Positions 29,370-29,808 of a stretch of DNA of 33,445 bases are shown one piece after another. The translations under genes and the position numbers were made by a program. Within the stretch, counting starts at the first letter, position 1, and each line of letters begins with the position of its first letter. The notes under the pieces were generated by a model. It was not told where the DNA came from. It saw only the letters and a program-made list of their open reading frames with translations, and searched no databases. Origin of the DNA: a virus (taxonomy: Duplodnaviria; Heunggongvirae; Uroviricota; Caudoviricetes); IMG/VR virus record IMGVR_UViG_3300045988_112031, positions 1-33,445 of that record; one strand, 5' to 3'.

Positions 29370-29645
29370 ATGAAAGTCCAGATTTTAAACAATAGTGGTG
29401 AAGTCGTTTGGTCATACGACATAGCCGCTCCTGTAGATCAGAGCGGCGATAGCTGGACCAATGGGAAACATCAGATTATGGCTGGAGTTGTGTTCTCTTT
29501 ACGCCGTGCTTTAGAACAGGCTGAAGTCTTTCCATCAGACCCTGAATGGAAATGGCCTTTTTCTATTTGTCCAAATTCGGAGAGTACATTTCAGAAAATT
29601 GGTCAGAAAGTCGCACTCGAAGAGCATCAGCCAACTGTTTCCTGA
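29370..29645 (+). CDS. hypothetical protein, first gene of the pL operon (not N-like)
   Basis: 91 aa; GGAGG Shine-Dalgarno 12 nt upstream; no arginine-rich N-terminus; 3' end overlaps the convergent ORF 29563-29808. Confidence 0.45.
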   Translation: MKVQILNNSGEVVWSYDIAAPVDQSGDSWTNGKHQIMAGVVFSLRRALEQAEVFPSDPEWKWPFSICPNSESTFQKIGQKVALEEHQPTVS

Positions 29646-29808
29646 TTTTTTCAGGTAACTCGTCGGCATCGCAGAAACAACAACGCTCGATCATGTTGAA
29701 AGCCGATTCGTAGAACTGTTTCTGCTGAGTGTCGCTGAGACAGGAAAAGAGCGACGTTACGATGATTTTATTAATTGCATTATCAAGTTCTTTTTCATCA
29801 AAAGTCAT
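29563..29808 (-). CDS. hypothetical protein (81 aa) antisense within the pL operon
   Basis: AAGGA Shine-Dalgarno 7 nt upstream of ATG; contains a CCFCD motif; convergent with and overlapping the 3' end of 29370-29645 by about 80 bp. Confidence 0.4.
   Translation of the reverse strand: MTFDEKELDNAINKIIVTSLFSCLSDTQQKQFYESAFNMIERCCFCDADELPEKIRKQLADALRVRLSDQFSEMYSPNLDK

What the first reader, a model, noticed from the sequence alone, without database searches (positions are those of the whole stretch)
29370..29808. Convergent, 3'-overlapping small gene pair immediately downstream of pL
ORF 29370-29645 (plus, 91 aa, GGAGG site) and ORF 29563-29808 (minus, 81 aa, AAGGA site) overlap by about 80 bp at their 3' ends. 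Both have good ribosome-binding sites, so either both are real (mutual antisense interference, toxin / antitoxin-like or exclusion-type regulation) or one is an artefact. The first pL gene is not N-like, so antitermination here is not lambda-type.
Basis: seen in the sequence. Interest (0 to 1): 0.5.

Follow-up and report, generated by a model that had tools for sequence, protein, structure and literature searches.

The report
Overlapping convergent prophage gene pair
Two small genes that face each other and share about 80 bases just downstream of the early leftward promoter of an SfV-like E. coli prophage are both real protein-coding genes. They sit where phages lambda and P22 keep their N and sieB (superinfection-exclusion) genes, and the leftward-facing one carries the same conserved upstream cassette as sieB.

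Summary
ORF A (29370-29645, +, 91 aa) and ORF B (29563-29808, -, 81 aa) overlap by 83 nt just after pL.

Both are genes. Eight diverged lineages from E. coli, Salmonella, Klebsiella, Yersinia and metagenomes keep both ORFs. Seven of them have exactly 439 nt between the two ATGs. Each non-overlapping part shows purifying selection in its own frame (pN/pS 0.34 and 0.27; antisense control frames 1.6-1.8). The shared core (29587-29624) is among the least variable stretches of the module.

Neither protein matches any known family or fold. A is acidic and not N-like.

The arrangement is that of lambda N/sieB, P22 gene 24/sieB, Rac ydaF/sieB and e14 ymfJ/ymfI. The two K-12 pairs are published RNA-seq "excludons".

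About 70 nt upstream of B is a conserved cassette that also precedes sieB and at least ten unrelated small cargo genes. Most of these cargo genes have their own convergent, overlapping partner.

Best reading (inferred): B is a prophage-expressed accessory gene, and pL transcription through A silences it by antisense or collision. B's biochemical role, a possible antidote role for A, and B's promoter are unresolved.

This is a new variant of a known kind, of moderate interest.

The parts
29223..29252 (+). pL-like early leftward promoter (TTGACA-18-TACATT), flanked by operator-like repeats
   Evidence: It has the same hexamers as pR at 28448-28419. It lies downstream of the cI-like repressor 28483-29136.
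29253..29369 (+). pL leader. It contains a 5' copy of the GTTGTGGTGAATGCG element (29263-29277), followed by a short hairpin.
   Evidence: The mosaic joint is at about 29349-29368.
29370..29645 (+). Gene A (91 aa; SfV orf33 / phrog_3195 / WP_072199399). It is the first ORF, and probably the only one, of the immediate-early pL transcript. The conserved part ends at ...VALEE (29624).
   Evidence: Purifying selection in frame A: pN/pS 0.34, variability at codon positions 1/2/3 of 0.245/0.155/0.419. The stop is not conserved: 91-93 aa, or 122-162 aa read-through.
29563..29808 (-). Gene B (81 aa; phrog_3311). It is not annotated in SfV or in the RefSeq E. coli genome examined (strain SOI121). Predicted three-helix acidic protein.
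   Evidence: Purifying selection in frame B: pN/pS 0.27, variability at codon positions 1/2/3 of 0.205/0.156/0.476. AF2 pLDDT 74, three helices.
29587..29624 (.). Doubly constrained core of the 83-nt overlap (29563-29645). It encodes ...FQKIGQKVALEE in A and ...ALRVRLSDQFSEM in B.
   Evidence: It is among the least variable stretches of the module: 0.158 with 5 lineages, 0.199 with 7 lineages, and only 6 of 402 38-nt windows are as low or lower. There is no third-position peak. pS falls to 0.22 (A) and 0.13 (B), against 0.58-0.68 outside.
29816..29843 (-). Hairpin whose 3' arm contains B's Shine-Dalgarno sequence (AAGGA, 29816-29820). Its 5' arm begins inside the invariant TATCCT.
   Evidence: It folds in 22 of 22 type-1 cassettes with many different arm sequences. 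The strand test is inconclusive.
29840..29848 (-). TGgTATCCT, a candidate extended -10 promoter element for B. TATnnT is invariant in 22 type-1 cassettes.
   Evidence: Invariant columns. No consensus sigma-70 promoter was found further upstream in any lineage. Inferred, not shown.
29846..29876 (-). Conserved core of the sieB-type upstream cassette: GCCUG-ucuuuuca-CCAC-uu-CAGGC-ucg-GUGG. It holds two interleaved helices, which form either a pseudoknot or two alternative hairpins.
   Evidence: Of the cells, 99.1% are paired, and 3 pairs carry compensatory double changes (0 of 500 shuffles). Rac gives a further compensatory variant, GCCCGG/CCGGGC. The same core lies upstream of lambda, P22 and Rac sieB.
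29897..30112 (+). STnc100-like structured RNA, annotated as a frameshifted 'ymfH' pseudo-ORF. It ends in a strong terminator-like hairpin (30063-30103) followed by a U-run. It probably marks the end of the immediate-early pL unit.
   Evidence: Rfam RF02076 scores 39.5 bits, below the gathering score of 47, with E 7.7e-7. Fold. PGAP 'frameshifted'.
29157..29186 (.). Terminator hairpin after the repressor gene. The same 10-bp GC stem forms on the minus strand, followed by only four U. It is a possible, weaker end point for B's transcript.
   Evidence: SfV annotates it as a terminator.

Best explanation
A and B are two real, co-inherited protein-coding genes. They form a convergent, 3'-overlapping cassette in the slot where lambda has N/sieB and P22 has gene 24/sieB.

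Shown here: both frames are under purifying selection; the geometry is fixed; the slot and the upstream cassette are shared with sieB.

Inferred mechanism. A is the first ORF, and probably the only one, of the immediate-early pL transcript. That transcript then runs antisense through the whole of B and its upstream cassette, and through an STnc100-like RNA, to a terminator at about 30110.

B is read from the other strand, starting at the conserved sieB-type cassette. It is expected to be made in the lysogen while pL is repressed.

No terminator separates the two genes. Once pL fires, on induction or from a superinfecting copy, convergent transcription and the antisense RNA would shut B off while A is made. 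The two products would therefore be mutually exclusive. This is an 'excludon', as reported for ymfI-ymfJ and sieB-ydaF, and it resembles P22 sieB/sas.

More speculative: B is a prophage-expressed accessory (exclusion-type) factor, and A is its early counter-factor, playing the role that Esc and sas play for SieB.
For: Both genes are real.
- Eight lineages keep both ORFs. Seven have exactly 439 nt between the ATGs.
- pN/pS is 0.34 for A and 0.27 for B in the non-overlapping parts, against 1.6-1.8 in the antisense control frames.
- The third-position variability peak switches from frame A to frame B across the module.
- The overlap core is among the least variable stretches, with synonymous change suppressed in both frames.
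- 77 of 80 IMG/VR loci have both genes intact.

The slot is shared.
- Lambda N and sieB are convergent and abut.
- P22 gene 24 and sieB are convergent with a 20-nt gap.
- Rac ydaF and sieB overlap by 4 nt.
- e14 ymfJ and ymfI overlap by 63 nt and are not homologous to A and B.

The cassette is shared.
- The same conserved core lies upstream of B, ymfI and sieB of lambda, P22 and Rac, and upstream of at least 10 unrelated cargo families.
- Most cargo genes have a convergent pL-sense ORF that overlaps their 3' end by 15-83 nt. Cargo family and partner family travel together.

Expression evidence from the literature.
- ymfI-ymfJ and sieB-ydaF are convergent excludons in MG1655 RNA-seq (PMC12288877).
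- ymfJ is late-SOS induced by 4-4.8 log2, and YmfJ protein was detected (PMC11002266).
- P22 makes a 105-nt cis-antisense RNA, sas, that controls sieB translation (PMC12197685).

Transcript ends.
- No terminator-like site was found between A and B.
- A strong + strand terminator hairpin lies at 30063-30110.
Against: - There are no expression data for this prophage. B's promoter is not located.
- No consensus sigma-70 promoter lies upstream of the cassette in any lineage. The only candidate, TGgTATCCT, is inferred from invariance.
- The cassette core folds no better than shuffles (z -1.5 and -1.2). Its covariation comes from only three lineages.
- The strand on which the hairpin acts cannot be decided.
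- Neither protein resembles SieB, any defence protein, any toxin or antitoxin, or any solved or predicted fold.
- A and B may travel together simply because they lie between two recombination joints.
- A B-family member occurs alone, without A or the cassette, between Q and the holin gene. Some cargo genes in the slot have no partner (L097).
- In e14, ymfI rose modestly rather than falling during SOS. I did not check whether that study's transcript data were strand-specific.
Confidence: 0.5

Rival explanations
1. Both genes are real, but the overlap is only genome compaction in a recombination hotspot. It has no regulatory meaning. A and B have unrelated functions and are co-inherited only because they lie between two conserved joints: the pL/leader region and the sieB-type cassette.
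For: The module is bounded by mosaic joints at about 29349-29368 and about 29845. A's stop codon drifts between 91 and 162 aa, so the length of the overlap as such is not conserved. Some cargo genes have no partner. A B homologue occurs alone elsewhere.
Against: There is not a single indel in 439 nt across 7 lineages. The pairing persists at the deepest divergence found. The conserved cores of the two proteins truly overlap and constrain each other. Convergent 3' overlap recurs in at least 8 unrelated cargo/partner cassettes in this slot. With no terminator between them, overlapping transcription is unavoidable whenever both promoters are active.
Confidence: 0.25
2. The pair is a toxin-antitoxin-like or abortive-infection pair. 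B is a growth-inhibiting effector made by the prophage. A is a protein antidote, made first from pL so that the phage survives its own system.
For: A is the first pL gene. A and B co-occur strictly in the pL slot over deep divergence. P22 SieB/Esc/sas is a precedent (PMC12197685; PMC12888859). Cargo-specific partners occur in other cassettes.
Against: There are no matches to PADLOC, Pfam, NCBIfam or PDB. B is a small soluble acidic helical protein with nothing toxin-like about it. Classical type II toxin-antitoxin pairs are co-transcribed, not convergent. A B homologue exists without A.
Confidence: 0.15
3. The conserved cassette works mainly as part of the pL-sense RNA: as the structured body or 3' end of a sas-like antisense RNA, or as a processing or termination signal of the leftward transcript. 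It would not be a 5' leader of B. B's mRNA would then start inside the hairpin, from TGgTATCCT.
For: TG-n-TATnnT is invariant directly after the core. No other promoter was found. The hairpin is more stable in the pL sense in 16 of 22 cassettes. The distance from the core to the sieB ATG in P22 is about 108 nt, close to the reported 105-nt sas RNA. That coincidence is my inference.
Against: Four G-U cells in the core are G-U only in the B sense and would be A-C mismatches in the pL sense. Type-2 cassettes (lambda, P22, SfIV) lack the TATnnT at that place. The sas coordinates could not be checked in the papers held.
Confidence: 0.35
4. One of the two ORFs is an annotation artefact. B would be a chance antisense ORF of A's region, or A's 3' end would be mis-called.
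For: B is not annotated in SfV or in the RefSeq (PGAP) genome examined. A's tail beyond VALEE evolves as non-coding in frame A (read-through control 1.57).
Against: Two thirds of B lies outside A and shows strong frame-B purifying selection. B homologues reach 25-30% identity and are still open. The conserved cores of A and B still overlap by about 38 nt.
Confidence: 0.03

Closest known systems
Phage P22 gene 24 / sieB-esc / sas, and phage lambda N / sieB
   Same: The position and orientation match. The first pL gene converges on a gene read from the opposite strand. The same conserved upstream core lies in front of the leftward-facing gene. sieB is a prophage-expressed superinfection-exclusion gene (PMC10461980 abstract, listed). 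sieB is controlled by a cis-antisense RNA (PMC12197685).
   Different: B is not a SieB-family protein. It has no PF14163 hit, is 81 aa, soluble and acidic. SieB is a protein of about 180 aa; from memory, it is a membrane protein. A is not an N-type or gp24-type antiterminator. N/sieB and gene 24/sieB abut or are 20 nt apart, whereas A and B share 83 nt of coding sequence. B uses the short one-hairpin form of the cassette and sieB the two-hairpin form. No Esc-like internal product has been examined.
e14 ymfJ-ymfI of E. coli K-12 (convergent excludon)
   Same: The slot is the same: LexA-like repressor, pL, first gene, convergent gene, sieB-type cassette, ymfH/STnc100-like block. The 3' overlap is 63 nt. 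The pair is listed as a convergent excludon (PMC12288877). ymfJ is SOS-induced (PMC11002266).
   Different: No sequence or profile similarity between A and YmfJ or between B and YmfI. The relation is analogous, not homologous.
Rac ydaF-sieB of E. coli K-12
   Same: Convergent, with a 4-nt overlap. It has a diverged copy of the cassette with compensatory changes. It is listed as a convergent excludon.
   Different: The cargo is SieB. The partner genes are tiny (ydaF and a neighbouring 44-aa gene).
Pseudomonas phage Fc02 olg1/olg2 versus gene 10
   Same: A lysogen-expressed gene and an early-lytic gene overlap on opposite strands in the immunity region. Exclusion activity was shown for products of both strands (PMC9936078).
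   Different: A Mu-like (B3-like) Pseudomonas phage with extensive overlap and unrelated sequences. There is no shared cassette.

Membership tests
Antiparallel overlapping (dual-coding) gene pair | Each ORF is under purifying selection in its own frame | tested here: met
   pN/pS is 0.34 (A) and 0.27 (B). Control frames give 1.6-1.8. Third-position peaks appear in the right frame.
Antiparallel overlapping (dual-coding) gene pair | The shared stretch is constrained by both frames | tested here: met
   Core 29587-29624 is among the least variable stretches (only 6 of 402 windows as low or lower). It has no periodicity, and pS is 0.22 and 0.13. The sample is small: 13 codons and 5-7 lineages.
Convergent excludon | Convergent genes with no terminator between them, so that the transcripts must overlap | tested here: met
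   The coding regions themselves overlap by 83 nt. No terminator-like site was found in 29370-29808.
Convergent excludon | Overlapping transcripts detected, with reciprocal expression | not testable with these tools
   RNA-seq evidence exists only for the analogous K-12 pairs ymfI-ymfJ and sieB-ydaF (PMC12288877).
sieB / esc / sas superinfection-exclusion system (P22, lambda) | SieB-family protein (PF14163) | tested here: not met
   B has no Pfam hit above threshold and no PADLOC or NCBIfam hit. Its HMM family is small and contains no SieB.
sieB / esc / sas superinfection-exclusion system (P22, lambda) | The gene lies convergent to the first pL gene | tested here: met
sieB / esc / sas superinfection-exclusion system (P22, lambda) | The conserved upstream region is shared with sieB | tested here: met
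   The core GCCTGTCTTTT..CCAC.TCAGGCTCGGTGG lies upstream of B and of lambda, P22 and Rac sieB.
sieB / esc / sas superinfection-exclusion system (P22, lambda) | An antisense RNA (sas) and an in-frame Esc product | not testable with these tools
   This needs Northern blots or Ribo-seq.
Lambda N-type antitermination protein | A small, basic protein with an arginine-rich motif as the first pL gene | tested here: not met
   A has pI 4.95, with 7 K+R against 11 D+E. Lambda N has pI 11.0. A has no family hits.
Type II toxin-antitoxin pair | A co-transcribed two-gene operon with recognisable toxin or antitoxin domains | tested here: not met
   The genes are convergent. There are no toxin or antitoxin domains.
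STnc100 sRNA (Rfam RF02076), for the flanking block 29897-30112 | Score at or above the gathering threshold of 47 bits | tested here: not met
   39.5 bits, E 7.7e-7, full-length match to the model. It is therefore 'STnc100-like', not a called member.
Structured cis-regulatory RNA (the cassette core) | Base pairs supported by compensatory changes in independent lineages | tested here: inconclusive
   99.1% of cells are paired, and 3 pairs carry double changes (0 of 500 shuffles). These come from only 2 lineages in the alignment, plus Rac. Folding z-scores are -1.5 and -1.2. The strand is undecided.

The most novel reading that the evidence does not exclude
The N/sieB slot of lambdoid prophages may be a general docking site for two-gene convergent 'excludon cassettes'.

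A portable sieB-type upstream cassette would drive many unrelated prophage-expressed cargo genes. It combines a promoter-like TGnTATnnT, two interleaved covarying helices and a hairpin that sequesters the Shine-Dalgarno sequence. It is not in Rfam.

Each cargo gene would be paired with its own pL-proximal early gene, which overlaps it tail-to-tail. That partner would serve as the phage's immediate-early antidote, while pL antisense transcription silences the cargo.

A/B would be one such exclusion-factor / escape-factor pair of a new protein family.
Probability: 0.3. Interest if true: 0.7.

Novelty: new variant of a known kind. Interest (0 to 1): 0.5.

Why it matters
It turns an annotation puzzle into a testable module. 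B is missing from the SfV annotation and from the RefSeq genome examined, yet it is clearly a gene. With A, it is a clean natural example of antiparallel dual coding with a fixed geometry.

The shared upstream cassette links B, ymfI and about ten other orphan families to the regulation worked out for P22 sieB. This suggests that the pL-proximal slot is a hotspot for lysogen-expressed accessory genes, possibly anti-phage ones, that are switched off by early lytic transcription.

If the partner genes are antidotes, the slot would be a place to mine for matched pairs of exclusion and escape factors.

Tried and rejected
- Family and fold searches for A and B gave nothing. This covers Pfam, PHROGs (function unknown), NCBIfam, PADLOC, a PDB sequence profile, and Foldseek against PDB and BFVD for B.
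- AF2 of A with 5 sequences gave pLDDT 44, which is unusable.
- Homology of A/B to e14 YmfJ/YmfI is rejected.
- B's RCC[YF]C motif as a metal site is rejected as a family feature, because distant homologues lack the cysteines.
- The GTDB scan with the B profile found nothing. The degenerate DNA pattern scan of GTDB gave mostly chance hits and 8 real ones.
- No consistent consensus sigma-70 promoter was found upstream of the cassette in 40+ different flanks.
- The P22 scan showed no obvious sas promoter or terminator.
- The strand test of the hairpin by G-U/A-C asymmetry was inconclusive.
- HK022 put sites could not be compared, because the stretch fetched did not contain the immunity region.
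- These papers are not held: Mehta 2004 (e14), Thomason & Storz 2010, and Liu 2013 (lambda ribosome profiling). The ExcludonFinder supplements are also not held.
- Rfam has no family for the cassette, even at E <= 10.
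Full report
**1. What is there**

The window is an SfV-like lambdoid prophage of E. coli. It is 98-99% identical to phage SfV, phage vB_EcoM-720R4 and many E. coli prophages across this region.

A LexA-family, cI-like repressor lies at 28483-29136 (+). It is followed by a terminator hairpin at 29157-29179. A pL-type promoter lies at 29223-29252, TTGACA-18-TACATT, with the same hexamers as pR at 28448-28419.

They overlap tail-to-tail by 83 nt.

B's AAGGA is 7 nt from its ATG. A's GGAGG is 13 nt away, which is further than ideal.

A is annotated in SfV as orf33 and by PGAP as WP_072199399. B is annotated in neither of the two records examined. Both ORFs match function-unknown PHROG families, phrog_3195 and phrog_3311.

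**2. Are both ORFs genes? Yes.**

Protein searches found diverged homologues of A (57-71% identity) and of B (about 60%, and with a profile down to about 25-30%).

I fetched the encoding contigs. Both ORFs are open, convergent and overlapping in the following lineages:
- the window;
- a Salmonella prophage (L003);
- three metagenome-run lineages (L087, L089, L090);
- Yersinia (L092);
- Klebsiella michiganensis (L095);
- a much more distant lineage (L275).

In the first seven, the distance from A's ATG to B's ATG is exactly 439 nt, at about 67% nucleotide identity, with no indel. In L275 it is 445 nt.

Per-column variability gives the classic third-position peak in frame A over the A-only part: 0.245/0.155/0.419. 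It gives the same peak in frame B over the B-only part: 0.205/0.156/0.476 (repeated with 7 lineages).

Nei-Gojobori counts give pN/pS of 0.34 for A and 0.27 for B. The same DNA read in the opposite-strand frame gives 1.8 and 1.6.

It is not met.

In 80 IMG/VR loci that carry B, 77 have an intact 81-aa B and an intact 91-aa A.

**3. The overlap**

A's conserved sequence ends at ...VALEE (29624). Beyond that, its stop codon drifts, giving 91-93 aa, 122 aa or 162 aa. The tail evolves as B's antisense, not as coding sequence in frame A. B's conserved sequence ends near ...SEM (29587).

The region that truly codes for both proteins is therefore about 38 nt (29587-29624). It is among the least variable stretches of the module: only 6 of 402 windows are as low or lower. 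It has no codon periodicity. Synonymous change is suppressed in both frames, with pS of 0.22 and 0.13 against 0.58-0.68 outside.

The phase puts each frame's wobble position on the other's second position. This explains the mutual constraint.

**4. What the proteins are**

Neither protein matches anything. Pfam, NCBIfam, PADLOC and a PDB profile search gave no hits.

AF2 of A was unusable, at pLDDT 44. B is predicted as a three-helix protein at pLDDT 74, with no significant structural neighbour in PDB or BFVD.

Both proteins are acidic, with pI 4.95 and 4.56. Lambda N has pI 11.0.

B's RCC[YF]C motif is lost in distant homologues, so it does not define the family.

**5. The genomic slot**

The arrangement 'repressor - pL - first gene, facing a gene on the other strand' is that of four known cases:
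- lambda N and sieB, which abut;
- P22 gene 24 and sieB, with a 20-nt gap;
- Rac ydaF and sieB, with a 4-nt overlap;
- e14 ymfJ and ymfI, with a 63-nt overlap.

A and B share no detectable homology with YmfJ and YmfI.

Two of these K-12 pairs, ymfI-ymfJ and sieB-ydaF, are listed among the convergent excludons of MG1655. These are gene pairs whose transcripts overlap in at least half of 58 RNA-seq data sets (PMC12288877).

ymfJ is induced late in the SOS response by 4-4.8 log2, and YmfJ protein was detected. ymfI rose only 1-2 log2 (PMC11002266).

**6. A shared upstream cassette**

I aligned the sequence upstream of B in all lineages with the sequence upstream of unrelated minus-strand genes in the same slot. 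This showed a sharply bounded conserved block.

In the window, its parts are as follows:
- The core (29846-29876, minus strand) reads GCCUG-ucuuuuca-CCAC-uu-CAGGC-ucg-GUGG.
- An invariant UAU follows.
- A hairpin (29816-29843) follows, whose 3' arm is the Shine-Dalgarno sequence.
- B's ATG follows.

The same core lies upstream of sieB in lambda, P22 and Rac (the Rac copy diverged), and in 149 phage records.

It comes in two forms. The short one-hairpin form is about 75 nt to the ATG and is used by B, ymfI and others. The two-hairpin form is about 106 nt and is used by sieB and SfIV gp36.

The two core helices are interleaved. They form either a pseudoknot or two alternative hairpins. Of the cells, 99.1% are paired, and three pairs show double compensatory changes (0 of 500 shuffles). 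These changes come from only two lineages, L089 and Yersinia. Rac adds a third, GCCCGG/CCGGGC.

The hairpin forms in 22 of 22 short cassettes with many different arm sequences.

Thermodynamic z-scores are unremarkable. The G-U/A-C strand test is inconclusive. Rfam has no matching family, even at E <= 10.

A competing or additional reading is that TG-n-TATnnT, invariant directly after the core, is an extended -10 promoter for the cargo gene. No consensus promoter exists further upstream in more than 40 unrelated flanks. In some lineages the next pL-sense gene starts within about 10-20 nt of the core.

Under that reading, B's mRNA would start inside the hairpin. The conserved helices would then belong to the pL-sense antisense RNA.

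P22 is known to make a 105-nt cis-antisense RNA, sas. It switches sieB translation and lets the phage escape its own exclusion system (review PMC12197685; Ranade & Poteete 1993, as cited there). I could not obtain its coordinates. The core-to-ATG distance in P22, about 108 nt, is close to 105 nt. I offer that only as an inference.

**7. Many cargo genes, each with a partner**

At least ten unrelated small protein families sit behind the cassette. They include B, YmfI-like proteins, SieB, SfIV gp36-like proteins, a weakly LprI-like 170-aa protein and several orphan families of 63-95 aa. Almost none has a Pfam match.

In nearly every case a pL-sense ORF converges on the cargo and overlaps its 3' end by 15-83 nt. 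The same cargo family goes with the same partner family. Apart from A and YmfJ, these partner ORFs are mechanical calls that I did not test for coding signal.

There are exceptions. The 170-aa cargo has no partner. One B-family member sits alone between Q and the holin gene. There it again faces against the lytic transcript, but it has neither A nor the cassette.

**8. How it most likely works**

Shown: there are two real genes with fixed, overlapping geometry, in the N/sieB slot, with a shared cassette and no terminator between them.

Inferred: in the lysogen pL is repressed and B is expressed from the cassette. Its transcript runs antisense through A and pL towards the hairpin after the repressor gene.

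On induction or superinfection, pL produces an immediate-early RNA. This RNA encodes A, then covers B and its cassette in antisense, then an STnc100-like RNA, and ends at a strong terminator hairpin at 30063-30110.

Convergent transcription and the sense/antisense RNA duplex would then shut B off while A accumulates.

More speculative: B is an exclusion-type accessory factor, and A is its early counter-factor, as Esc and sas are for SieB. A functional precedent exists in Pseudomonas phage Fc02. There, a lysogen-expressed gene and an early-lytic gene overlap on opposite strands, and both give exclusion (PMC9936078).

The main rival is that linkage between two recombination joints explains the co-inheritance, and that the overlap is mere compaction.

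**9. Novelty and verdict**

The kind is known: a convergent excludon in the N/sieB slot, with antisense control of sieB.

Three things appear not to be described, as far as the papers held show:
- B is a real gene that is largely unannotated.
- A and B form a strictly conserved dual-coding cassette.
- The sieB upstream region is a portable cassette in front of many unrelated cargo genes that have their own overlapping partners.

I rate this a new variant of a known kind, of moderate interest. B's function, A's role and B's transcription start are unresolved.

Noticed in passing
window 29897-30112 (+): The block annotated as 'ymfH' or as a 'frameshifted hypothetical protein' matches the prophage sRNA family STnc100 (RF02076) over its full length. 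The score is 39.5 bits, below the gathering score of 47, with E 7.7e-7. GUUGUGGUG (29919) pairs with CACCACAAC (about 30033). The block is conserved at 95-99% in about 2900 of 5426 complete E. coli genomes. It is more likely an RNA than a protein gene.
   Followed up: partly
window 30063-30113 (+): A 13-bp GC-rich hairpin followed by UCCUUUUUAC lies at the end of the STnc100-like block and before yfdP (30247-30609). It looks like the first terminator of the pL operon. No N-like protein is present to read through it.
   Followed up: partly
window 29263-29277 and 29919-29933 (+): There is a direct repeat of GTTGTGGTGAATGCG, once right after pL and once after the A/B module. In Yersinia, Salmonella, e14 and L275 a different leader element, CAGGCAGGACGCCCACG..., occupies the same place. 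In Yersinia it is also seen on the far side of the module. The A/B module therefore looks like an insertion into, or next to, a repeated leader RNA element. A possible role of these elements in RNA-based (put-like) antitermination was not tested.
   Followed up: partly
window 27103-27179 (-) and 26991-27078 (-): There are clear Rfam hits to isrK (78.7 bits) and to the C4 antisense RNA (77.8 bits), side by side in the pR operon. This suggests a P1/Gifsy-type antirepressor control module in this prophage.
   Followed up: no
window 29273-29395 (+): A 40-aa ORF (MRRLMRERHCSYCGKELFGG...) lies in the pL leader and overlaps A's start. In E. coli KE58 a 'ClpX C4-type zinc finger protein' gene sits at the equivalent place (L098 1810-2013). 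The window ORF may be a remnant of it. The 86-nt segment 29263-29348 also occurs on E. coli plasmids.
   Followed up: no
L090 3007 and 3881 (-); L262 (two sites); L275 (two sites): Some prophages carry two copies of the sieB-type cassette in series, each in front of a different minus-strand cargo gene. L275 has both a B homologue and a SieB-family gene.
   Followed up: no
L005 1607-1831; proteins P0011, P0022, P0023: Rare recombinant B variants switch to unrelated sequence after ...ALRVRL or after residue 33. The mosaic break points therefore fall inside the A/B overlap or inside B. In these variants A is lost or truncated.
   Followed up: partly
hairpin loops of the cassette, e.g. window 29824-29835 (-); lambda 34440-34470: The hairpin loops carry a recurrent C-rich and CA-rich motif, such as CCCUACAG, CUCUCACAC or CCCGUAUAC. 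It appears in all cargo types and twice in the two-hairpin form. This might be a kissing-loop or a protein-binding motif.
   Followed up: no
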